From an uncultured Holophagales bacterium (GTDB taxonomy: Bacteria; Acidobacteriota; Thermoanaerobaculia; UBA5066), in the NCBI GenBank assembly GCA_964636395.1, contig CAZWRQ010000002.1, positions 1 to 57,606 on the forward strand: a stretch of 57,606 nucleotides of DNA, read 5' to 3'. Both the position numbers and the translations under genes were made by a program. Positions 47,948 through 57,602 of this stretch are shown piece by piece (position 1 is the stretch's first letter; the number at the start of each line of letters is the position of its first letter). Below the pieces are notes generated by a model. That model was not told where the DNA came from, made no database searches, and saw only the letters and a program-made list of their open reading frames with translations.

Positions 47948-48415
47948 ATGATCCGCCGCCTGCTCGCCGCCCGCACGTTCGTCCTCCGCGCCTCATCCTC
48001 CCTCTCCTGGCTCCCGCTCGCCGCCGCGCGTGTCGCGCTCGGAACCGTCTTCGTCCAGTCGGGCTGGGGGAAGCTCCACGACCTGCCGCGCGTCGTCGGC
48101 TACTTCGAGAGCCTCGGCATCCCGGCCCCGCAGCTGCAGGCGCCGTTCGTGGCGGGCGTCGAGATTGCCGGAGGAGCTCTCCTCCTCGCGGGGCTCTTCA
48201 CGCGTGTCGCCTCCGTCCCGCTCGCAGCGACGATGGTCGTCGCGCTCCTCACCGCGAGGCGCGCCGACCTCGGGAGCGCTTCCGACCTCTTCGGCGCAAT
48301 CGAGCTCCTCTACCTCCTCCTCCTCGGGTCGCTCGCGGGGTTCGGGGCGGGCGCGCTCTCGCTCGACGCGCTCCTCGTCCGGCGCTTCGCACCGGACGAG
48401 GAGCCGAAGGGCTAG
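47948..48415 (+). CDS. DoxX family membrane protein
   Basis: It has LAAARVALGTVFVQSGWGKL...FVAGVEIAGGALLLAGLFTR, typical of DoxX. Its 3' end overlaps the convergent DUF2063 gene by 4 nt. Confidence 0.8.
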   Translation: MIRRLLAARTFVLRASSSLSWLPLAAARVALGTVFVQSGWGKLHDLPRVVGYFESLGIPAPQLQAPFVAGVEIAGGALLLAGLFTRVASVPLAATMVVALLTARRADLGSASDLFGAIELLYLLLLGSLAGFGAGALSLDALLVRRFAPDEEPKG

Positions 48416-49266
48416 CTCGCGACGCTCGGGCCGGGGGCGACCCCGGCCCGGGCGAAGGCGCCGAGCGCGCTCCACTCCGCGAGCCAGCCCGCCACGATTT
48501 GCGCCGGAGGGCGCGGGCTCGCCGCACGGGCGAGCGCCTCTCCGAGCGGGAAGCCCGCGACGAGAGCCGCGAGGAGCCGGCCCGGTACCGGGTCTAGGGT
48601 GCGGCGGAGGACGGTGAAGTCCCTCCGGTAGAACGCGACGTGGACGATGCCTCGCCCGGCGGAGGTGGGGGCCGGAGAGTCCTCGAGGACCGCGTCGAGG
48701 GCCGCGACCGCTCCCGGCCGTACGGTGAGGATCGCGAACGCGGGCGCGGCGACGAGGCGGAGCGATTCCCCCTCCGACTCGAGCGCCTCCGCCAGCGCGG
48801 GGGCGCCGAGGAGAGCGACGTCCGCGGCGTCGAAGACGGCCGCCGCGGCTTTCTCGAGGCGGGCGACGTCCTCGCGAAGGCCCCGTCCGCGCATCGGCCC
48901 CCACGCGGCGACGAACGACGGAAGCCGGTCGCCGAGCCGGGCGAGCGTGAAGCTCGTGGAGGGGTGCGCCGCGACGTACTCCCGAACGAACGCGCCGAAC
49001 CTCTTCTCGCCGAGAAGCTTCGCGAGGGCCGGGTAGTCGGAGCGGAGAGCCTCGACCGTCCGGAGGGGATACATCGACGCGTAGATCCCGAGGCGCTCGA
49101 CGGGAGAGAGCGCTCCGTGCGCGCGGACGACGGCGCCGAGCCGAGACGGCGGGAGGAGCTGCCGCGCGGAGGGCGAACGGAGGCCCGCGTCGACGCCGCC
49201 GGGGTGGACGATCACCGTCTGCATCCACGCCTGGAAGCGCGCGAGGGGGAGGCCGGCCGCCGTCAC
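48412..49266 (-). CDS. DUF2063-family protein (BufC/HvfC/MbnC-like partner of MNIO enzymes)
   Basis: GTG 49266 overlaps the DUF692 stop (GTGA). The N-terminal region FQAWMQTVIVHPGG...LGIYASMYPLRTVEAL...FGAFVREYVAAHPS is typical of DUF2063. Confidence 0.75.
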   Translation of the reverse strand: MTAAGLPLARFQAWMQTVIVHPGGVDAGLRSPSARQLLPPSRLGAVVRAHGALSPVERLGIYASMYPLRTVEALRSDYPALAKLLGEKRFGAFVREYVAAHPSTSFTLARLGDRLPSFVAAWGPMRGRGLREDVARLEKAAAAVFDAADVALLGAPALAEALESEGESLRLVAAPAFAILTVRPGAVAALDAVLEDSPAPTSAGRGIVHVAFYRRDFTVLRRTLDPVPGRLLAALVAGFPLGEALARAASPRPPAQIVAGWLAEWSALGAFARAGVAPGPSVAS

Positions 49267-50129
49267 GCCGCCTCCCGCGCGCGACGCCCGTCGCGATCGC
49301 CGAGGGCGACCTCGGCCACGGATCGCGCCTTCCGCGCCTCGGCGAGGACGACGTCGAGCGCCGGGATCTCCTCGTCCCACTCGACGAGCGTCGTCACGGG
49401 GCCCGTGCGGCGGACGAGCCGCGCGTAGAGGGTCCAGACCTCGTCCCTCACGTGGTCGGAGTGCGTGTCGAGGAGGTGCGTCCCGAGGTCGGTGTGCCCC
49501 GCGAGGTGGACCTGGACGACCCGGTCGGCCGGGATCTCGTCGATCCACGCCTCGGCGTCCTGGCCGTGGTTGAAGGAGGAGACGAAGACGTTGTTCACGT
49601 CGACGAGGAGTCCGCAGCCGGAGAGGTCGGCGAGGCGGCCGAGGAACTCGGCTTCTCCCATCGTGGAGGCGGCGAGCTCGAGGTAGGTGGAGGGGTTCTC
49701 GAGGTGGACCGGCCTCTCGAGGACCTCCTGCACGACGCGGAGGCGCGCGGCGACGTGCGCGAGCGTCTCCTCGTTCCGCGGGAGCGGCAGGAGGTCGTGC
49801 GTGTTCCGGCCGGCGACGCCCGTGAAGCAGAGGTGGTCGGTCACCCAGCGCGCGTCGACGCGCCGGGCGAGCTTCTTCACCGCCCGGAGGTACTCGAGGT
49901 CGAGCGGGTCGACGCTCCCGACGTTCAGCGAGACGCCGTGCAGGACGATGGGCGTCCTCTCCGCGAGCTGCTCGAGGACGTGGAGGGGCCGCCCTCCGGT
50001 GTCGAGGAAGTTCTCGGTGATCGCCTCGAGGAAGTCGGCCGTGCCCGGCCGTTCGAGGTGGTCGGCGAAGTGGACCGTCCGGAGGCCCACGCCGTAGCCG
50101 AGCATCGGCAGGCCGAATCGGTTTCGCAT
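49263..50129 (-). CDS. DUF692 / MNIO (multinuclear non-haem iron oxidase, MbnB/BufB-like) RiPP maturase
   Basis: ATG 50129 has GGAGG upstream. It has [71 protein letters not shown] and [10 protein letters not shown]. Confidence 0.85.
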
Positions 50130-50727: not shown

Positions 50728-50773
50728 CGCGAAACCGGAGCGGACCTGCGAGCATCAAGGGAGCGTGACGACG

Positions 50774-51895
50774 ATGCTCGCAACCCCTGCCCCCCGCCCT
50801 CCCCGGCCGGTCCCGCATCGCACGAGGCCTCGCGCCGCGCGCCTCCTCGCCGGCCTCGCCTTCGCGGCCGGCTTCGCCGCCTGCGGCCCGTCGAGCTCGC
50901 TCGCGGGGCCTCCGGCCGGCGAGCAGACGAAACCCGAGAAGGTGGAGAAGATGAAGCACGTCCTCTCGAAGTCCGGCTACGACGTCACGCCCCGTTCGCG
51001 CGAGGAAGTCGCCGTCCTCGCGAAGAGGCTCTCCCCGGAGTCGTACCGCGTGACGCAGAAGGCCGGGACGGAAGCCCCGTTCTGCGGGAACCTCCTCGAC
51101 AACAAGAAGGAGGGGACATACCTCTGCGTCGTCTGCGGCCTCCCGCTCTTCTCGAGCGAGCACAAGTTCGACTCGGGGACCGGCTGGCCGAGCTTCTTCC
51201 GGGAGGTCGACCCCGCTCACGTGGCGCGGACCGTGGACCGCTCGCTCGGCATGGAGCGGGTCGAGATCGACTGCGCCCGCTGCGGCGCCCACCTCGGGCA
51301 CGTGTTCGAGGACGGACCGGCCCCGACGGGCGAGCGCCACTGCCTGAACTCCGCCTCGCTCACGTTCCTCGAGAAGGGGGCGCCGGTCCCGCCGGAGAGC
51401 CGCCCCGTAAAGACCGAGACCGCCTACTTCGCGGCCGGCTGCTTCTGGGGCGTCCAGCACTGGTTCTCGCGCGGGCCGGGTGTCCTCGAGGCGACGAGCG
51501 GCTACATGCAGGGACGGACGGAGAAGCCGACCTACCGGCAGGTCTGCGACGGGGACACCGGGCACGCCGAGACGGTGAAGGTCGTCTACGACGCGAACCG
51601 GATCTCCTACCGCAGGCTCGTCGAGGCGTTCTTCGCCATGCACGACCCGACGCAGCTGAACCGCCAGGGACCCGATGTCGGCGACCAGTACCGCTCGGGG
51701 ATCTGGACCGTCGACGCCGGGCAGGAGAAGGTGGCGCGGGAGGTCCTCGCGGAGCGGGCCGCACAGAAGGCGTACGGCGCGAGGAAGATCGTGACGGTCG
51801 TCGAGCCGGCGAAGACGTTCTGGCCCGCCGAGGAGTACCACCAGGAGTACCTCGCGAAGAACGGCGCCGCCTGCCACGTGACGAACCCGTGGTGA
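50774..51895 (+). CDS. msrBA: Bifunctional peptide methionine sulfoxide reductase MsrB-MsrA, lipoprotein/secreted
   Basis: It has a lipobox-like AAGFAAC. The MsrB part has [21 protein letters not shown] and RHCLNS. The MsrA part has AGCFWGVQ and [19 protein letters not shown]. In-frame GTG 50765 is an alternative start. Confidence 0.9.
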
Positions 51896-51972: not shown

Positions 51973-52530
51973 TTGTCCGAGATCGAGGCGCGGGAGAGGC
52001 TGGCGAAGCTGATGGTGGCGTACCAGGGCGGTGACGAGTCCGCGTTCGAGAGTCTCTACGGCGAGCTCGCGGGCCCCGTGAGGGCGTTCCTCGCATCGCT
52101 CACGCGGAACGCGGCCCGAGCGGACGACCTCCTCCAGGAGACGTTCTTCAACGTCCACCGCGCACGGCTGACGTACGACCCGACGCGCTCCGCGAAGGCG
52201 TGGGTCTACGCCATCGCGCACAACGTCTTCCTGATGGCCTGCCGCACGGACCGGAGGCGCGGCCGGAACGAGGAGCTCCCCGCGGACGAGCTGCCCGACC
52301 TCCCCGTCCCGGCCGAGGCCGAGTCGCTCGCCTCGAGGGACCTCGTCTCGCGCGCCCTCGCGACGCTCCCCGTCGACCGCCGCGAGGCGCTCCTCCTCCA
52401 CCACGTCGAAGGGCTCTCGTTCCAGGAGGTGGGGGCCGTCCTCGGCGTCACGACGATGGCCGCGAAGCTCCGCTCGCACCGCGCCATGGGTCAGCTCCGG
52501 GAGCTCCTCGCCCGCGAGGGGGCGCGATGA
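51973..52530 (+). CDS. ECF-type RNA polymerase sigma factor (SigF-like group)
   Basis: Region 2 (LLQETFFNVHRARLTYDP...AWVYAIAHN) and region 4 (LLLHHVEGLSFQEVGAVLGVTTMAAKLRSHRA) are present. The TTG start is from the ORF track. Confidence 0.85.
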   Translation: MSEIEARERLAKLMVAYQGGDESAFESLYGELAGPVRAFLASLTRNAARADDLLQETFFNVHRARLTYDPTRSAKAWVYAIAHNVFLMACRTDRRRGRNEELPADELPDLPVPAEAESLASRDLVSRALATLPVDRREALLLHHVEGLSFQEVGAVLGVTTMAAKLRSHRAMGQLRELLAREGAR

Positions 52531-53240
52531 GCGGCACACCGCTCCCGCCCGCGCTTCGCGCCGCCGTCGAGAGAGACCTTCGGCCGGTCCGCCCGCTCGC
52601 CTCGCCGGCGCGGCGCGCCCTCGTCCTCCTCGCCTGGGCCGCCGTCGCCGCGGCCCTCGTCCTCGCCCTCCGGGGCCTCCGCTCCGACGCCTCAGAGCTG
52701 GGCGTCCTCCTGACGTGGGGCGTCGTCCTCGCCGAGGTCGCCGCAGGCGCCGGGCTCGTCGCGCTCGCGCTCGCCGAGGCGGTTCCCGCGCGGGGACCGG
52801 GGCGCGGCGCCGCGCTCCTCGCCCTCGGCGGTGCCGCGGCCCTCTTCGTCGCCCTCGCCGTCGCGGCCCGCCGCGCGAGCCACGGGATGGAGGTCGACGA
52901 CCCGCTCCTGAGGTTCGGCCCCTCCTGCGCCGGCCTTCAGGGCTTCATCGGCCTGACGGCCTTCGCCGTCGCCGCCCTCCTCGTCCTTCGGGCCGCGCCG
53001 CTCCGCGCCCGGCTCGCGGGGCTCCTCGCCGGCGCCGGGACCGGCTTCCTCGCCGAGGGGGTCTACCACCTCGACTGCCCCATCACGCACCTTTCTCACG
53101 TCCTCGTCTGGCACGGCTCCGCCATACTCCTCCTCGCGCTCTTCGGGCTCGGCTTCGGCCTCGTCCTCGAGGCGAGGGAGCGGGCTCGAATGGAACGACG
53201 GCGCGCCGACACGGCCGCGCGGAAAGGAGGCGAGGGTTGA
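52527..53240 (+). CDS. NrsF-like (DUF1109) membrane anti-sigma factor
   Basis: ATG 52527 overlaps the sigma stop (ATGA). It has about 6 TM helices and two Cys 50 residues apart (Cys134, Cys184). From memory, that matches the spacing reported for Caulobacter NrsF. Confidence 0.7.
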   Translation: MSGTPLPPALRAAVERDLRPVRPLASPARRALVLLAWAAVAAALVLALRGLRSDASELGVLLTWGVVLAEVAAGAGLVALALAEAVPARGPGRGAALLALGGAAALFVALAVAARRASHGMEVDDPLLRFGPSCAGLQGFIGLTAFAVAALLVLRAAPLRARLAGLLAGAGTGFLAEGVYHLDCPITHLSHVLVWHGSAILLLALFGLGFGLVLEARERARMERRRADTAARKGGEG

Positions 53241-54286
53241 GCGACGAGGTCTTCCGGAAGCTCACGAGCCTCTCTTCCTGCGCGGGGTGAGCGTCGAAGC
53301 TGCCCCCCGGGCAGACCGCGCAGGTCCTGCGCGTCCTCGGTGACCTCTTCCCCGCGGCCTCCCGCCCCGACGTCCTCGTCGGGCTCGCCGAGCCGGACGA
53401 CGCCGCGGTCCTCGACCTCGGGGACGGGCGGGCGCTCATCCTGACGACCGACTTCTTCACGCCGGTCGTGGACGAGCCGTACGACTTCGGCGCCATCGCG
53501 GCCGCGAACGCGATGAGCGACGTCTGGGCGATGGGGGGCGAGCCCGTCCTCGCTCTGAACCTCGTCGCCTTCCCGCCGCAGCTCTCGGCCGCGACGCTCG
53601 CCGAGCTGCTCCGAGGGGGCGCCGAGGCCGTCCGCGCCGCAGGGGCCGTGATCGCCGGAGGGCACTCCATCCAGGACAAGGAGCCGAAGTACGGGCTCTG
53701 CGTCGTCGGCTTCGGCGAGACCGGCCGTCTCCTGACGAAGGGGGGCGCGCGGCCGGGTGACGGGCTCTGGCTGACGAAGCCGCTCGGGACGGGGACGGTC
53801 ACGACGGCCCTCAAGCGCGGCCTCGCTTCGGAGGGCGAGGTCGCCGCGGCGGTCGCCTCGATGAAGGCGCTGAACCGGGGCGCGGCGCGCGCCGCGTGGG
53901 CGGCGGGAGCGAAGGCCGCGACCGACGTCACCGGCTTCGGCCTCCTGGGGCACGCGCTCGAGATGGCCGAGGCGTCGGGCGTCCGCTTCCGCTTCGAGTG
54001 GGACGCGCTCCCCTTCCTTCCCGGGGCGGCGCGCCTCGCGGCCGACATGGTCTTCCCCGGCGGCGCCTTCGGGAACCTCGAGCACTTCGGATCGCGCCTG
54101 GCGCGCTCGCGCCCCCTGACCGACGCCGAGGCGATGCTCCTCGCCGACCCGCAGACCTCGGGCGGCCTCCTCGTCGCGGTGCCGGCGGGAGGAGAGGAGC
54201 CGTTTCGCGCTTCGATCGGGCGCGAGGGCGGTCCGGCGTGGCGGGTCGGCGAGGTCGTCGAAGGCGACGGGCTCGAGGTGTCCTGA
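53237..54286 (+). CDS. selD: Selenide, water dikinase (selenophosphate synthetase) SelD, with in-frame UGA (selenocysteine) at 53288-53290
   Basis: TTG 53237 overlaps the anti-sigma stop (TTGA). FRKLTSLSSCAG-U-ASKLPPG aligns with E. coli SelD IRLTQYSHGAG-C-GCKISP. The same frame continues into DDAAVLDL and TTDFFTPVVDEPYDFGAIAAANAMSDVWAMGG. The ORF track only reports 53468-54286. Confidence 0.85.
53300..53333 (+). promoter_or_regulatory. SECIS-like stem-loops downstream of the selD UGA
   Basis: CTGCCC-CCC-GGGCAG lies at 53300-53314. CGCGCAG-GUC-CUGCGCG lies at 53317-53333 (7-bp stem, G-first loop). The second resembles the GCAGGUCUGC apex of the E. coli fdhF SECIS. Confidence 0.55.
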
Positions 54287-54562: not shown

Positions 54563-55447
54563 ATGAGAGTTGGAGCGATCGTGTCGACGCTCCTCGCGCT
54601 CCTGTGGGCAGCGCCCGCCGTCACCGCGGAAGCGGTCGACTGCGCCGCCTGCCACGAGGAGATCGCGAAGGCGACGACGAACCAGGTCCACATGCGGATC
54701 GCACCGTTCGAGGTGAAGGGGCACGCCGTGGGCTGCGAGGGATGCCACGGGAACGGGCAGGTCCACGCCGAGAGCGGTGACAAGGCGCAGATCCGCGTCC
54801 TCGGCGAGGACAAGGCCTCCGACAAGGCCTGCCTCGAATGCCACCGGTTGAAGGGCTTCCCGGCCTGGCACGCCTCGACCCACGCGGCCGAGGACCTTCA
54901 CTGCACGAGCTGCCACACGATCCACAAGGAAAGCCGGCCCCTCGAGACGTGCGCGAAGTGCCACGCCGCAGAGCGGGCCCAGTTCGAGCTCCCCTCGCAC
55001 CACCCTCTCCGCGAGGGGAAGATGACGTGCGCGAGCTGCCACGACCCGCACGCGGCGACCGAGGCGCAGCTGAAGACGAAGCAGCGGCAGAACGACCTCT
55101 GCACGAAGTGCCACCAGGCGCAGGAAGGCCCGTTCGTCTTCGAGCACGCCCCCGTCCAGGAGAGCTGCGCCACGTGCCACGTCCCGCACGGCTCGGTGGC
55201 CGGCCGGCTCCTGACCGCGAACGAGCCGATGCTCTGCCTCCAGTGCCACGAGCTCCATTTCCACACGAGCTACGAGGCGACGGACGGCGTCCAGATGCTC
55301 GGCGGCATTCCCCGGCAGAGCCCGAACGGCCCCCAGGGAATGAACATGGCGTTCGCGACGAAATGCACGCAGTGCCACCCGAAGGTCCACGGCTCCGACC
55401 TCCCCTCGCAGGGGATCTCGAGCGGCGGGCGTTCGCTGACGAGGTAG
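54563..55447 (+). CDS. Periplasmic decahaem cytochrome c, MtrA/DmsE/PioA/MtoA family
   Basis: ATG 54563 has GAGGAGGGGG upstream, followed by a signal peptide. Ten CxxCH sites are present (CAACH, CEGCH, CLECH, CTSCH, CAKCH, CASCH, CTKCH, CATCH, CLQCH, CTQCH) in 294 aa. It lies immediately upstream of an MtrB-like barrel. Confidence 0.85.
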   Translation: MRVGAIVSTLLALLWAAPAVTAEAVDCAACHEEIAKATTNQVHMRIAPFEVKGHAVGCEGCHGNGQVHAESGDKAQIRVLGEDKASDKACLECHRLKGFPAWHASTHAAEDLHCTSCHTIHKESRPLETCAKCHAAERAQFELPSHHPLREGKMTCASCHDPHAATEAQLKTKQRQNDLCTKCHQAQEGPFVFEHAPVQESCATCHVPHGSVAGRLLTANEPMLCLQCHELHFHTSYEATDGVQMLGGIPRQSPNGPQGMNMAFATKCTQCHPKVHGSDLPSQGISSGGRSLTR

Positions 55448-55457
55448 GAGAGGAGAG

Positions 55458-57188
55458 ATGCAGAACCGCACCACCACGCTCCTCCTCGCCGCCGCGGTCC
55501 TCGTGGCGCCCGGCCTCCGGGCGGAGGATCCACCCGCGAAGACCACTCAGGGGAGCCTCGAGCTCGGCGGCTACGGCACGAGCGTCGACGGCGCCCCCGG
55601 GAAGGCGATGGAGTACGAGCCGACCGGCAAGTACATGCCCTACCGGCTCTTCGCGTCCGCCCACGAGAGCTGGGGAAGCCTGAAGATCTCCTCGGAGAAG
55701 AAGGCGGGGGACGACGAATCGCATCGCCTCGCCTTCGACGTGAAGCGGACGGTCCGGGCGAAGGCCTGGCTCGACCAGGTGGCCCACCGCCAGCCTCACG
55801 ACCCGATGAAGAACCTGACGGCCGCCGTCGCCGACGGAAAGTTCGTCTGGAACACCGACCTCGACCCGACGGCCGCCTACAAGACGTCGTACACGACGTG
55901 GGGCGGCCGCGCCGAGGTCCAGCTCCCGTCCCTGTCGGCGGCCACTCTCGGCGTCTCCTACGGAGAGCAGCGCCGAAAGGGGCACGTCCAGCTCATGGCG
56001 CTCTCGCACTGCGACAGCTGCCACGTCACGAGCCAGTCGCGAGCCGTCGACGAGAAGACGCGCGACGCCGCCGTCGACCTCCTCGTCGCCTTCCGCGGAG
56101 GGAGCGCCCGGGTCGGGTACAACCACCGCGAGCTGAAGAACGAGGAGCCCTACGCCCTCTACACCTACGACCGCGCGATGCACCCGGTGGCGCGGACGCC
56201 CATCTTCGACAACCGCCTCCAGTACGACGCGACCGAGGGCGTCCAGCGGATCGACGAGCGCCCCGACACCCGGAAGAACACCGGGAGCCTCGACTTCTCG
56301 CTCGACAGTCTGGCCGGCTTCGCCGTGACCGGGATCGGGGTCGTCTCGAAGACCGAGAACCGGTTCGCCGGCCTCGAGGCCTCCTATGCCGGAGGCGCGC
56401 TCGCGCTCGCCCGGAGCTGGGACTCGGGCCTCAGGCTCCGGTTCCGGACCCGCTACTACACGATGGACAACGACGACGTCTTCGTCGACGTCATCGAGCG
56501 GAAGTCGGTCGCCGGGCCCCAGGCGGGGAAGACCTACCGCGAGATCTACAAGTACGACCCCGACTTCCTCCGGACCTCCGCGCTCGGCCGGGACGTCTAC
56601 GAGTCGAACCTCGAGGCCGCGTACCGGCTCGGGAAGGCCGCCGGAACCCTCAAGGCGGTCTGGAGCTTCCAGAGCCTCTCCCGCGACAACGTCGAGGCGA
56701 CCCCGGGCGAGGAGACGACGGTGACGAACGTCGTCGGCCTCTCCTGGCGGGCCCAGGTCGCGAAAGGCTTTCGGCTCTTCGCGGACGCCCGCCACGGCGC
56801 GGTCTCGCACCCGCTCCTCGCGCTCGACGGCACCTGCTCGCAGCTGCAGTTCCCGACGTCGGGGACGAGCGGCCTCGACCCGAAGCTCGCTCAGTACTGG
56901 CAGTCCCACGCGGCGCGCGTGGGCGACGGCACCGCGTACCCCGAGAGCTGGAACGAGCTGAAGGCCGGCGCGACGTGGACCACCGGCGCGCTCGGGCTCA
57001 CCGCGAACTACCGCTACTACACCGGCGACAACGACGCGGGCGACTTCACCGACTGGTCGAAGACGAACCACTCGGCCACCGTCACTCTCTGGTCGATGCC
57101 CTCCCCGACCTGGGACTGGTACGTCGCCTGGGCCTTCCAGAAGAGCGAGCTCGGAGGTCACACCTGCGTCTCGCTCTTCGATGGGTGA
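55458..57188 (+). CDS. MtrB/PioB-family decahaem-associated outer-membrane beta-barrel, as terminated at UGA 57186-57188
   Basis: ATG 55458 has AGGAGAGGAGAG upstream, followed by a signal peptide (LLLAAAVLVAPGLRA). It has long alternating beta-strand sequence and an internal HCDSCH motif, and it is adjacent to the decahaem gene. It ends at a TGA after which the frame stays open. Confidence 0.8.
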   Translation: MQNRTTTLLLAAAVLVAPGLRAEDPPAKTTQGSLELGGYGTSVDGAPGKAMEYEPTGKYMPYRLFASAHESWGSLKISSEKKAGDDESHRLAFDVKRTVRAKAWLDQVAHRQPHDPMKNLTAAVADGKFVWNTDLDPTAAYKTSYTTWGGRAEVQLPSLSAATLGVSYGEQRRKGHVQLMALSHCDSCHVTSQSRAVDEKTRDAAVDLLVAFRGGSARVGYNHRELKNEEPYALYTYDRAMHPVARTPIFDNRLQYDATEGVQRIDERPDTRKNTGSLDFSLDSLAGFAVTGIGVVSKTENRFAGLEASYAGGALALARSWDSGLRLRFRTRYYTMDNDDVFVDVIERKSVAGPQAGKTYREIYKYDPDFLRTSALGRDVYESNLEAAYRLGKAAGTLKAVWSFQSLSRDNVEATPGEETTVTNVVGLSWRAQVAKGFRLFADARHGAVSHPLLALDGTCSQLQFPTSGTSGLDPKLAQYWQSHAARVGDGTAYPESWNELKAGATWTTGALGLTANYRYYTGDNDAGDFTDWSKTNHSATVTLWSMPSPTWDWYVAWAFQKSELGGHTCVSLFDG

Positions 57189-57602
57189 GCGGCGACCATC
57201 CTATCGGGCCAGTTCGGCTCGAACGCGTCCCGGGTCACCTCCGACTCCACCAGCAGCACCGTCATGGCCGGCGTGAACCTCCGCCCCGCGGGGCCGGTCA
57301 CGCTCGCCCTCCTCGCCTCCTACACCGCCTCCGATTTCTCCATGGACCCCTGGACCCTTAACGGAGGCGAGTTCGCCGCGCGGAGCCACCTCCAGCCGTA
57401 CGACTACTCCCTGACCCACACCTTCTCGGACCTCGACGTCTCGCGTTTCGACGCGAGCGCCGAGCTCCGCTACAGGCTCTCCAAGAGCTTCTCGCTCCGC
57501 GGCCTCTACAGGTTCATCGACTACCAGGACGACGCCCCGTACCTCGAGGACGCCTCGGGCAGGGTCAACGTCGTCTCCGGAGGCTTCGGGCTCGTCTTCT
57601 AG
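57189..57602 (+). CDS. In-frame continuation of the MtrB/PioB-like barrel beyond the UGA (C-terminal strands ending GGFGLVF)
   Basis: It is in the same frame as 55458-57188, with no stop until TAG 57600-57602. There is no SD before the internal ATG 57264. It has an OMP-type C-terminal Phe. The joined length of 714 aa is close to MtrB (~700 aa). Confidence 0.6.
   Translation, partial: AATILSGQFGSNASRVTSDSTSSTVMAGVNLRPAGPVTLALLASYTASDFSMDPWTLNGGEFAARSHLQPYDYSLTHTFSDLDVSRFDASAELRYRLSKSFSLRGLYRFIDYQDDAPYLEDASGRVNVVSGGFGLVF
57204..57222 (+). promoter_or_regulatory. Candidate SECIS-like hairpin downstream of the mtrB-like UGA
   Basis: U-CGGGCC-AGUUC-GGCUCG-A gives 7 bp including one G-U. The loop starts 22 nt after the UGA and has G at its second position. 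It is weaker than the selD element. Confidence 0.3.

What the first reader, a model, noticed from the sequence alone, without database searches (positions are those of the whole stretch)
55458..57602. In-frame UGA splits an MtrB/PioB-like outer-membrane barrel two genes downstream of a Sec-containing selD: possible selenoprotein porin, or a fresh pseudogene
**What the sequence shows**
- The barrel ORF stops at TGA 57186-57188, but the same reading frame (55458 and 57264 are both 0 mod 3) runs with no further stop to TAG 57600-57602.
- The 138 codons after the UGA look like the missing C-terminal strands of the barrel and end in GGFGLVF, an OMP-type terminal Phe.
- The internal ATG 57264 has no Shine-Dalgarno (upstream is ccaccagcagcaccgtc), so it is unlikely to be an independent gene.
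- Joined, the protein is 714 aa, close to Shewanella MtrB.
- The local context is HTC-VSLFDG-U-AATIL, a Cys six residues before the UGA, which could form a selenenylsulfide pair.
- A 7-bp hairpin (57204-57222) has a 5-nt loop with G at position 2, starting 22 nt after the UGA. As far as I recall, this fits the loose bacterial SECIS rules.

**Context and interpretation**
- selD, two genes upstream on the same strand, itself uses UGA-Sec, so the cell should have the Sec machinery.
- TGA is otherwise the common stop codon in this window.
- I know of no selenocysteine in an outer-membrane electron-conduit barrel.
- The null explanations are a nonsense mutation or a sequencing/assembly error. The intact downstream frame means any inactivation would be very recent.
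Basis: partly seen in the sequence, partly recalled or inferred. Interest (0 to 1): 0.8.

Follow-up and report, generated by a model that had tools for sequence, protein, structure and literature searches.

The report
Known selenoprotein outer-membrane barrel gene
The "stop" inside this outer-membrane barrel gene is a conserved selenocysteine codon, so the gene makes one 714-residue heme-binding barrel paired with a ten-heme cytochrome; this family is already catalogued as a selenoprotein, but nobody knows what the selenium does.

Summary
The selenoprotein reading is right; the pseudogene and sequencing-error readings are refuted.

- **Conserved UGA:** all 53 homologous loci that reach the site have TGA at this exact column, never TAA or TAG. 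Their true terminal stops are mixed.
- **Conserved extension:** 137-142 in-frame codons follow, and all 51 complete extensions end in Phe.
- **Sec/Cys pair:** three rare full-length homologues carry Cys at the UGA column.
- **Fold:** the predicted structure matches MtrB (PDB 6r2q_B) best.

It is not new. The N-part scores 501 bits (cutoff 350) on NCBIfam NF041027, "GSU2204 family CXXCH-containing (seleno)protein", and that model ends at the UGA. A 2026 review lists the family as a selenoprotein.

This is therefore an unannotated acidobacterial member of a known family, split into two ORFs by gene callers. The barrel has an invariant CXXCH heme motif and always follows a GSU2203/DmsE-type decaheme cytochrome gene. 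The role of Sec is unknown. The proposed Cys partner is present in 41 of 53 loci and absent from the Cys forms checked.

The parts
55458..57602 (+). Complete selenoprotein gene: 714-residue GSU2204-family outer-membrane barrel precursor (576 aa + U577 + 137 aa + TAG)
   Evidence: frame; NF041027, 501 bits vs cutoff 350, model positions 3-580 of 580 end at the UGA; conserved TGA plus extension; barrel fold, best match MtrB 6r2q_B.
55458..55523 (+). Predicted signal peptide (MQNRTTTLLLAAAVLVAPGLRA | EDPP)
   Evidence: Read from the sequence: hydrophobic core followed by LRA. Helix 2-15 in the model. The cleavage site is inferred, not computed.
56010..56024 (+). CXXCH c-type heme-binding motif (C185-D-S-C188-H189, preceded by H184)
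   Evidence: H184, C185, C188 and H189 are invariant in alignment A1. The motif is also present in the Cys-form and non-Cys homologues P0066, P0085, P0160, P0168 and P0154. In the model it sits at the tip of the long hairpin formed by strands 162-184 and 189-212.
57165..57167 (+).
   Evidence: Present in 41 of 53 loci; otherwise V, S, T or G. Ala in two of the Cys-form homologues, P0066 and P0160. Not a conserved partner.
57186..57188 (+). UGA read as selenocysteine (U577)
   Evidence: TGA in 53 of 53 homologous loci, while terminal stops are TAG 27, TGA 21, TAA 3. Cys aligned here in P0066, P0085 and P0160. 114 of 118 cluster representatives that reach this column end exactly here.
57204..57222 (+). 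bSECIS upper stem-loop (7 bp, loop AGUUC 57211-57215, 22 nt after the UGA)
   Evidence: -10.4 kcal/mol. Across 32 sequences, 87% of cells are paired vs 72% in shuffles (0 of 500 reach it), 7 of 9 pairs show compensatory changes, and slid controls give 27-55%. RNAalifold predicts the same helix. The loop G (column 27) is invariant. Meets the bSECIS criteria quoted in PMC13188914.
57189..57599 (+). C-terminal 137 residues: the last barrel strands, ending in the GGFGLVF beta-signal
   Evidence: GC3 0.96 in this frame. dN/dS 0.28-0.60 against relatives. Pfam OMP_b-brl E = 2.8e-4. Six strands in the model. Terminal Phe in 51 of 51. In the public record it is called as a separate 112-aa ORF starting at ATG 57264 (P0030).
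54563..55447 (+). Partner gene: periplasmic decaheme c-type cytochrome (GSU2203/DmsE/MtrA type, 10 CXXCH motifs), ending 10 nt before the barrel start
   Evidence: NF041028 at 324.3 bits (cutoff 325) and TIGR03508 DmsE family at 213 bits (cutoff 192.2). Ten CXXCH motifs read. Immediately upstream of the barrel in every locus with enough upstream DNA except the rearranged L042.
53237..54286 (+). selD (selenide, water dikinase), itself with a Sec codon at 53288-53290 and a downstream hairpin at 53317-53333
   Evidence: The hairpin has loop GUC, -11.4 kcal/mol, and 33 nt between the UGA and the loop. Syntenic in the close relatives L053-L056.

Best explanation
55458-57602 is one gene for a selenoprotein of the GSU2204 family.

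**Proposed mechanism**
1. During translation, the hairpin at 57204-57222 acts as a bacterial SECIS. It recruits SelB with Sec-tRNA(Sec), so UGA 57186-57188 is read as selenocysteine (U577) and a 714-residue precursor is made.
2. After export, one c-type heme is attached at C185/C188 (CXXCH).
3. The C-terminal GGFGLVF signal directs insertion into the outer membrane as an MtrB-like barrel, probably of 26 strands.
4. The barrel sheathes the decaheme cytochrome encoded just upstream. Together they form a two-gene porin-cytochrome electron conduit.
5. By loop-length topology, U577 and the heme motif both lie in loops on the outer side of the barrel. My best guess is that Sec is a redox or ligand residue at the outer mouth of the conduit.

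**What is shown**
- Conserved UGA, a Sec/Cys pair, a covarying SECIS, and a coding extension.
- Family membership, the MtrB-like fold, and the conserved decaheme neighbour.

**What is inferred**
- Actual Sec insertion, heme attachment, complex formation, topology, and the chemical role of Sec.
For: **Family**
- NF041027 hit: 4.8e-150, 501 bits (cutoff 350), covering the model to its last position, which is the residue before the UGA.
- The family is listed as a selenoprotein in PMC13188914.

**Conserved UGA**
- All 29 database homologues (28-98% identity) end at the same FDG column.
- At DNA level, 53 of 53 loci from Acidobacteriota and other MAGs, including Desulfuromonadales, have TGA there. 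It is followed by 137-142 in-frame codons ending in Phe (51 of 51).
- If the internal stop were drawn like the terminal stops, P would be about 4e-21. That figure is naive because the loci are related.

**Close relatives**
- Relatives at 98%, 82% and 68% identity keep the TGA. Their extensions have dN/dS of 0.28-0.60.

**Wider family**
- In the profile search of 1.84 billion representatives, 114 of 118 hits that reach the column stop there.
- Four continue: three with Cys aligned to U and one with Gly.

**SECIS**
- 7 of 9 pairs show compensatory changes (for example pair 20-36 is GC in 15 and CG in 13 sequences). The loop G is invariant, and the helix beats both shuffled and slid controls.
- The window hairpin meets all four published bSECIS criteria.

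**Sec machinery**
- A Sec-type selD lies two genes upstream.

**Fold and context**
- The AF2 model of the N-part has MtrB (6r2q_B) as its best PDB match: E = 5.8e-11, TM 0.51-0.56, against about 0.35 for the next hits.
- The decaheme gene is adjacent in every locus with upstream DNA except the rearranged L042, amid otherwise unrelated flanks.
Against: **Not demonstrated**
- There is no direct evidence of selenium in the protein.
- selA, selB and tRNA-Sec are not in the window: ARAGORN found no tRNA, and the nearby genes scanned are unrelated.

**Weak on a single sequence**
- The window hairpin in its 60-nt context is not distinguishable from shuffles, so the SECIS case rests on comparison.

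**Limits of the family counts**
- The 114 truncated representatives were not all checked at DNA level.
- The window protein does not reach Pfam MtrB_PioB, and a profile of the family finds no MtrB by sequence in the PDB.

**Weak topology and role**
- The N-part and C-part had to be modelled separately (pLDDT 72 and 67), and no coordinates were available.
- The C-part model shows 6 strands, which fits a 26-strand barrel only if its first strand belongs to a loop.
- Homologues with Gly or no Cys at the column keep the CXXCH motif. Sec is therefore not an obligatory heme partner.
Confidence: 0.93

Rival explanations
1. Fresh pseudogene: a recent nonsense mutation truncated an MtrB-like barrel, and the downstream frame has not yet decayed.
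For: TGA is the usual stop codon in this window (23 of 30 ORFs). At 72% G+C, a 137-codon open frame arises by chance with P about 0.12.
Against: - The same TGA at the same column is present in 53 of 53 homologous loci, down to about 23% identity and across phyla.
- The extension is under purifying selection and always ends in the beta-signal Phe.
- A real decayed copy looks different: L047 carries multiple frameshifts.
Confidence: 0.01
2. Sequencing or assembly error created the TGA.
For: The window is a metagenome-assembled contig (NCBI contig of 57606 nt), and no reads were available.
Against: Independent assemblies from different samples and technologies carry the same codon. These include the 98%-identical L053 and L054 from two separate runs and 50 further loci.
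Confidence: 0.01
3. Genuinely split barrel: translation stops at the UGA, and the C-terminal strands are made separately from ATG 57264, as current gene callers annotate it. The two pieces then assemble in trans.
For: Gene callers output a 576-aa ORF plus a 109- or 112-aa ORF in the window clade. The ATG is conserved in that clade.
Against: - There is no Shine-Dalgarno before ATG 57264.
- The ATG position is V, L, S or F in other clades, while the 25 residues between U and that position are conserved as protein (U-A-[GA]-x-[IV]-x-[GS]-G-Q-x-G).
- Cys-form homologues are single 723-810-aa polypeptides.
- The stop is always TGA, with a covarying hairpin.
Confidence: 0.03
4. The UGA is read through as something other than Sec, for example Trp or Cys by near-cognate decoding, or through a reassigned code.
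For: Sec insertion has not been shown chemically for this family, as far as the literature searched here shows.
Against: - TGA serves as a normal terminator in this window and in the homologues' own terminal stops, so the code is not reassigned.
- The aligned residue in full-length homologues is Cys, the classical Sec counterpart.
- A SECIS-type hairpin at the canonical distance covaries.
- A Sec-dependent selD is adjacent.
Confidence: 0.02

Closest known systems
NCBIfam NF041027, GSU2204 family CXXCH-containing (seleno)protein (Geobacter sulfurreducens GSU2204; listed in Zhang et al. [quoted passage not shown]
   Same: - End-to-end HMM match above the curated cutoff, with the model ending at the UGA.
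- CXXCH motif.
- A GSU2203-type decaheme gene immediately upstream.

This is the family the gene belongs to.
   Different: - The host is an acidobacterium (Holophagales-like, 72% G+C), not Geobacter.
- selD is fused into the same gene string in this clade only.
- The public record for this contig splits the gene into two unnamed ORFs.
MtrB of the Shewanella MtrCAB complex (PDB 6r2q chain B; Pfam PF11854 MtrB_PioB)
   Same: - Best structural match of the model (E = 5.8e-11, TM 0.51-0.56).
- Similar size (714 aa).
- Paired with a DmsE/MtrA-type decaheme cytochrome gene.
- Homologues P0066, P0085 and P0154 pass PF11854.
   Different: - The window protein itself does not reach PF11854, and there is no sequence-level PDB hit.
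- From my own knowledge, MtrB carries neither a CXXCH heme site nor Sec, and it works with a surface decaheme MtrC.
- No MtrC-like gene accompanies this cassette.
ExtKL (GSU2937-2936) of Geobacter sulfurreducens, a multiheme c-type cytochrome predicted to contain Sec (NF040886)
   Same: Another selenoprotein inside an extracellular-electron-transfer gene cluster, also split into two ORFs by the UGA (PMC5877670; PMC13188914).
   Different: ExtKL is a soluble or lipoprotein multiheme cytochrome, not a barrel. There is no sequence relationship. It has been linked experimentally only indirectly, to selenite reduction.
Bacterial SECIS as modelled from E. coli fdhF and bSECISearch (criteria quoted in PMC13188914, section 5)
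   Same: - Hairpin inside the coding region.
[quoted passage not shown]
- 16-37 nt from the UGA.
- MFE at or below -7.5 kcal/mol.

All are met, and the helix covaries.
   Different: The sequence is unrelated to the fdhF element. The loop is 3 nt in most relatives and 5 nt in the window, because the closing A-U pair becomes A·C.

Membership tests
GSU2204 family CXXCH-containing (seleno)protein (NF041027) | HMM score at or above the curated cutoff over the full model | tested here: met
   501.1 bits vs cutoff 350; residues 12-576 on model positions 3-580 of 580.
GSU2204 family CXXCH-containing (seleno)protein (NF041027) | Single CXXCH heme-binding motif | tested here: met
   C185-x-x-C188-H189, invariant in 19 of 19 aligned members and present in distant homologues. 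Heme attachment itself was not testable.
GSU2204 family CXXCH-containing (seleno)protein (NF041027) | In-frame UGA (or Cys) at the end of the 'part 1' model, followed by a conserved C-terminal extension | tested here: met
   TGA at 57186-57188 plus 137 codons. The same in 53 of 53 loci, with Cys in 3 full-length homologues.
GSU2204 family CXXCH-containing (seleno)protein (NF041027) | Adjacent GSU2203-family decaheme cytochrome | tested here: inconclusive
   NF041028 scores 324.3 bits against a cutoff of 325, just below. The DmsE family TIGR03508 is passed (213 vs 192.2). Adjacency is conserved in every locus with upstream DNA except the rearranged L042.
Bacterial selenoprotein gene | UGA conserved among orthologues and aligned with Cys in homologues | tested here: met
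Bacterial selenoprotein gene | [quoted passage not shown] | tested here: met
   7 bp, loop AGUUC, 22 nt spacing, -10.4 kcal/mol. Covariation in 7 of 9 pairs.
Bacterial selenoprotein gene | Sec machinery (selA, selB, selC, selD) in the genome | tested here: inconclusive
   selD is present and itself Sec-type. No tRNA in the window, and selA/selB were not seen among the genes scanned. The rest of the genome is not available.
Bacterial selenoprotein gene | Selenium demonstrated in the protein | not testable with these tools
   Needs 75Se labelling or mass spectrometry.
MtrB/PioB outer-membrane barrel (Pfam PF11854) | Pfam gathering score (23 bits) | tested here: not met
   The joined protein gives no PF11854 hit; the C-part alone scores 11.9 bits, E = 0.079. 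Homologues P0066, P0085 and P0154 pass (41.9-54.8 bits), so the relationship is transitive.
MtrB/PioB outer-membrane barrel (Pfam PF11854) | Large MtrB-type barrel fold | tested here: met
   Foldseek top hit is 6r2q_B (E = 5.8e-11, TM 0.51-0.56), well ahead of TonB-dependent transporters at TM about 0.35. The model's mean pLDDT is 71.9.
MtrB/PioB outer-membrane barrel (Pfam PF11854) | Encoded next to an MtrA/DmsE/PioA-type decaheme cytochrome | tested here: met
   TIGR03508 at 213 bits. The decaheme gene ends 10 nt before the barrel start.

The most novel reading that the evidence does not exclude
The two-gene cassette (decaheme cytochrome plus barrel) may be a self-sufficient electron conduit that needs no MtrC-type surface cytochrome.

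In this reading the barrel's own covalently bound heme and U577 both sit in outward-facing loops. Together they would form the terminal, possibly catalytic, redox site at the cell surface, for example for metal, metalloid or chalcogen substrates. Sec would be strongly preferred over Cys there, since 114 of 118 family representatives appear to be Sec forms.

This would be the first selenium-based redox centre in a bacterial outer-membrane protein with a defined role.
Probability: 0.2. Interest if true: 0.75.

Novelty: new member of a known kind. Interest (0 to 1): 0.4.

Why it matters
**Annotation.** This contig, and more than a hundred homologues in public protein sets, are mis-annotated as a 576-aa protein plus a small orphan ORF. 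Reading the UGA as Sec restores a complete barrel.

**Biology.** The family puts a c-type heme site and a selenocysteine into the barrel of a porin-cytochrome conduit. It is widespread in uncultured Acidobacteriota (Thermoanaerobaculia, Holophagae, Vicinamibacteria), not only in Geobacter relatives, and it is almost always the Sec form rather than the Cys form. In Geobacter, the GSU2203/GSU2204 pair is induced about 2.4-2.7-fold by hematite (PMC4070692).

**Open question.** No function for the Sec has been tested in the literature I could search. The family is a ready-made target for asking what selenium does in extracellular electron transfer. The discovery that it is a selenoprotein has already been made.

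Tried and rejected
- By the same rule it could not be used for structure prediction. The N-part and C-part were therefore modelled separately, and the Sec-to-heme distance could not be measured.
- **PDB by sequence.** A profile of the family gave no MtrB hit, only a chance 6.6 E-value match. The link to MtrB needed fold comparison.
- **Rfam.** No family matched anywhere in the window.
- **Literature.**
  - The review cites reference 61 (Zhang and Gladyshev 2008, PMC2398784) for the family, but its main text mentions no cytochrome or outer-membrane selenoprotein. I could not trace the original description.
  - Haft and Tolstoy 2025 (PMC12013261) is not held.
- **Selenenylsulfide with C570.** Rejected as a general mechanism, because the Cys is not conserved.
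- **Sec as obligatory heme ligand.** Made unlikely by homologues that keep CXXCH but have Gly or no Cys at the column.
- **Lower stem including the UGA.** UGAGCAGG pairing with CCUGCUCA is seen in several relatives. It is not formed in register in the window and overlaps conserved codons, so I did not count it as part of the element.
- **Split YeeE/YedE gene pair.** A pair downstream in L055 looked like a possible further UGA-split selenoprotein, but the frame after its stop is not coding.
- **Source names.** Cluster look-up gave no names or accessions for these proteins.
Full report
**1.

The ORF starts at ATG 55458, behind a purine-rich ggagaggagag, and stops at TGA 57186-57188 after 576 codons. 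The same frame then runs for 137 more sense codons to TAG 57600-57602, four bases before the end of the window. The local context is HTCVSLFDG-TGA-AATIL and the C-terminus is GGFGLVF. ATG 57264 is in frame and lacks a Shine-Dalgarno.

The hairpin at 57204-57222 is a 7-bp stem with loop AGUUC. It folds at -10.4 kcal/mol and its loop begins 22 nt after the UGA.

selD lies two genes upstream (TTG 53237 to 54286). It has its own in-frame TGA at 53288-53290 in the context SCAG-U-ASK, and the part after the UGA matches TIGR00476 from model position 13 at 1.3e-100. A hairpin with a GUC loop follows 33 nt after that UGA.

- At about 72% G+C, a 137-codon frame stays open by chance with P about 0.12.
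- The 60-nt fold is no better than shuffles (z = +0.45).
- The frame after the UGA does keep the coding signature: GC3 is 0.96 against 0.57 and 0.50 in the other frames.

**2. What the gene is**

The 576-residue N-part hits one NCBIfam model, NF041027, 'GSU2204_Se_pt_1, GSU2204 family CXXCH-containing (seleno)protein'. The score is 501 bits against a cutoff of 350, and the match covers model positions 3-580 of 580. The curated model therefore ends exactly where the UGA lies.

The gene just upstream (54563-55447) has ten CXXCH motifs. It scores 324.3 bits on NF041028, 'GSU2203 family decaheme c-type cytochrome' (cutoff 325), and passes the DmsE-family model TIGR03508.

**3. Comparative test of the UGA**

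*Protein databases.* A search with the joined sequence found 29 homologues at 28-98% identity. All are 518-607 residues long and cover only 67-81% of the query. All 18 of these that were aligned end at the same column...FDG or ...FSG.

*DNA level.* A scan of one genome per species returned 52 loci. Most are Acidobacteriota MAGs (Thermoanaerobaculia, Holophagae, Vicinamibacteria, 'Sulfomarinibacteraceae'); a few are labelled otherwise, and three are Desulfuromonadales.
- Every locus that reaches the site has TGA right after the Gly.
- 137-142 in-frame codons follow, ending in Phe.
- With three non-redundant close relatives added, the counts are 53 of 53 internal TGA, terminal stops TAG 27, TGA 21 and TAA 3, and terminal Phe in 51 of 51.

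*Close relatives.* Loci at 98%, 82% and 68% identity (L053-L057) keep the TGA. Their extensions have dN/dS of 0.28-0.60, similar to the N-part at the greater divergences.

*Residues after U.* These are conserved as protein: U-A-[GA]-x-[IV]-x-[GS]-G-Q-x-G.

*Exceptions.* All are explainable:
- L024 and L029 are cut by contig ends.
- L047 carries several frameshifts.
- L042 is an N-terminally truncated copy next to a selD. It keeps the Sec codon and has a second TGA 40 codons later.

**4. Sec/Cys pair**

A profile of the N-part was searched against 1.84 billion cluster representatives. It gave 546 hits at E up to 1e-3 and 198 at E up to 1e-30. Of the 150 hits listed, 118 reach the last profile position and 114 of those end there.

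Four continue:

| Protein | Length (aa) | Residue aligned to U577 |
|---|---|---|
| P0066 | 725 | Cys |
| P0085 | 723 | Cys |
| P0160 | 810 | Cys |
| P0168 | 767 | Gly |

A more distant hit, P0154, has no Cys there.

A search with the C-part alone found only short, separately called ORFs of 86-134 aa. One is the window's own 112-aa ORF on an NCBI contig of 57606 nt, and another is named as coming from a Holophagales MAG.

The family is thus overwhelmingly the Sec form with rare Cys forms. The caveat is that the 114 truncated representatives were not individually checked at DNA level.

**5. SECIS**

Sixty nucleotides starting at the UGA were aligned without gaps for 32 diverse members. RNAalifold predicts one helix, columns 19-26 with 30-37, and 6 of its 8 pairs show double changes.

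Counting a 9-pair version gave these results:
- 87.2% of cells are paired, against 71.8% in shuffles (0 of 500 shuffles reach the observed value).
- 7 pairs show compensatory changes. Pair 20-36 is GC in 15 and CG in 13 sequences; pair 21-35 is GC 13, UA 7, AU 7.
- The covariation score is 0.405 against 0.139 in shuffles.
- Slid controls give only 27-55% pairing.

Some of this covariation links a synonymous third position of a Gly codon to the second position of a Tyr/Phe codon. That is hard to explain by protein constraints alone.

The first loop base, G at column 27, is invariant. The window's version meets all four criteria of the published bacterial SECIS model (PMC13188914 section 5). Those criteria are a 4-16-bp stem, a 3-9-nt loop with G in its first two positions, 16-37 nt spacing, and MFE at or below -7.5 kcal/mol.

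**6. The protein**

*Heme motif.* H184-C185-x-x-C188-H189 is invariant in the alignment. The CXXCH is kept even in the homologues without Sec or Cys. The heme site is therefore the more ancient family feature, and Sec cannot be an obligatory heme partner.

*Upstream Cys.* The Cys seven residues before U occurs in 41 of 53 loci and is Ala in two of the Cys forms, P0066 and P0160. A fixed selenenylsulfide with it is unlikely.

*Fold.* An AlphaFold2 model of the N-part (pLDDT 71.9) shows about 21 long strands, with the CXXCH at the tip of an extended hairpin formed by strands 162-184 and 189-212. Its best PDB match is MtrB, 6r2q chain B (E = 5.8e-11, TM 0.51-0.56). The next matches are TonB-dependent transporters at TM about 0.35.

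*Sequence-level link to MtrB.* The window protein does not reach Pfam MtrB_PioB, but homologues P0066, P0085 and P0154 do. A family profile finds no MtrB in the PDB by sequence.

*C-part.* The model (pLDDT 66.7) has six strands.

*Topology (inference).*
- All even-to-odd turns in the N-part are 2-7 residues, as expected for periplasmic turns.
- All long loops are odd-to-even, as expected for extracellular loops.
- A closed barrel with both ends in the periplasm then needs five C-part strands, giving 26 in total, which from my own knowledge is the number in MtrB.
- This places residues 565-596, including C570 and U577, in outward-side loop 11, and the CXXCH in outward-side loop 4.

**7. Context**

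*Window clade.* The gene order is ECF sigma factor, NrsF-like protein, selD (Sec), decaheme, barrel.

*Divergent loci.* Only the decaheme-barrel pair is conserved, the flanks are unrelated, and no MtrC-like surface cytochrome gene is present. The functional unit is therefore a two-gene cassette.

*Expression.* In G. sulfurreducens, GSU2203 (OmcK) and GSU2204 rise 2.7-fold and 2.4-fold with hematite (PMC4070692).

*Precedent.* Another Geobacter cytochrome in an electron-transfer cluster, ExtKL, is also a predicted selenoprotein (PMC5877670).

**8. Verdict**

The TGA at 57186-57188 is a selenocysteine codon, with confidence about 0.93. The gene is an unannotated acidobacterial member of a known, curated selenoprotein family. 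The pseudogene, sequencing-error, split-gene and non-Sec readthrough readings are each at or below a few percent.

What remains open is the chemistry of Sec in an outer-membrane heme-bearing barrel, and the strong preference for Sec over Cys. That keeps some interest in the family, but the discovery itself is not new.

Noticed in passing
window 53237-54286 (+): selD is itself a selenoprotein gene. It has TGA at 53288-53290 (SCAG-U-ASK), followed by a 7-bp hairpin at 53317-53333 with loop GUC, 33 nt after the UGA (-11.4 kcal/mol). Gene callers truncate it to 272 aa.
   Followed up: partly
window 51973-53237 (+): An ECF sigma factor (51973-52530) and an NrsF-family protein (Pfam PF06532 on the relatives' product; about 52527-53237) sit directly upstream of selD, the decaheme gene and the barrel. 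The order is conserved in relatives L053 and L054. This suggests envelope-stress or metal-responsive control of the cassette in this clade.
   Followed up: partly
window 48415-50102 (-): A bufferin-type RiPP maturase gene (MNIO family BufB, NF050167, 332 bits vs cutoff 310) lies at 49266-50102. An adjacent ORF downstream of it on the minus strand (48415-49548) gave no NCBIfam hit. A bifunctional MsrB/MsrA gene (50750-51892, +) lies next to it. The precursor peptide was not looked for.
   Followed up: no
L042:5033-7248: An N-terminally truncated copy of the barrel, starting at about residue 299, lies directly after a selD gene in a Thermoanaerobaculia MAG. It keeps the Sec TGA and the whole C-part but has a second in-frame TGA 40 codons after the first. 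This could be a rearranged pseudogene, an assembly problem or a second recoding site.
   Followed up: partly
L047:6001-8073: This homologue in an Acidobacteriota MAG is broken by at least three frameshifts and several stops around the Sec region. It is either a decayed copy or long-read assembly errors. It shows what a real broken copy looks like, in contrast to the window gene.
   Followed up: partly
A2 columns 1-8 with 45-52 (e.g. L010:3241-3292, L013:7696-7747, L036:7636-7687): In several relatives the UGA itself is part of a perfect 8-bp lower stem (UGAGCAGG with CCUGCUCA) below the SECIS hairpin. The window forms only a shifted, weaker version (GG.GACC with GGUC.CC). It overlaps conserved codons, so its significance is unclear.
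   Followed up: partly
L055:5086-9058: In the 82%-identical relative, the barrel gene is followed by a Cytochrome_cB-family multiheme cytochrome gene, a cytochrome b (Ni_hydr_CYTB) gene and two YeeE/YedE-type (Sulf_transp) genes. The window ends before this region. The split between the two YeeE/YedE genes is not an in-frame UGA readthrough.
   Followed up: partly
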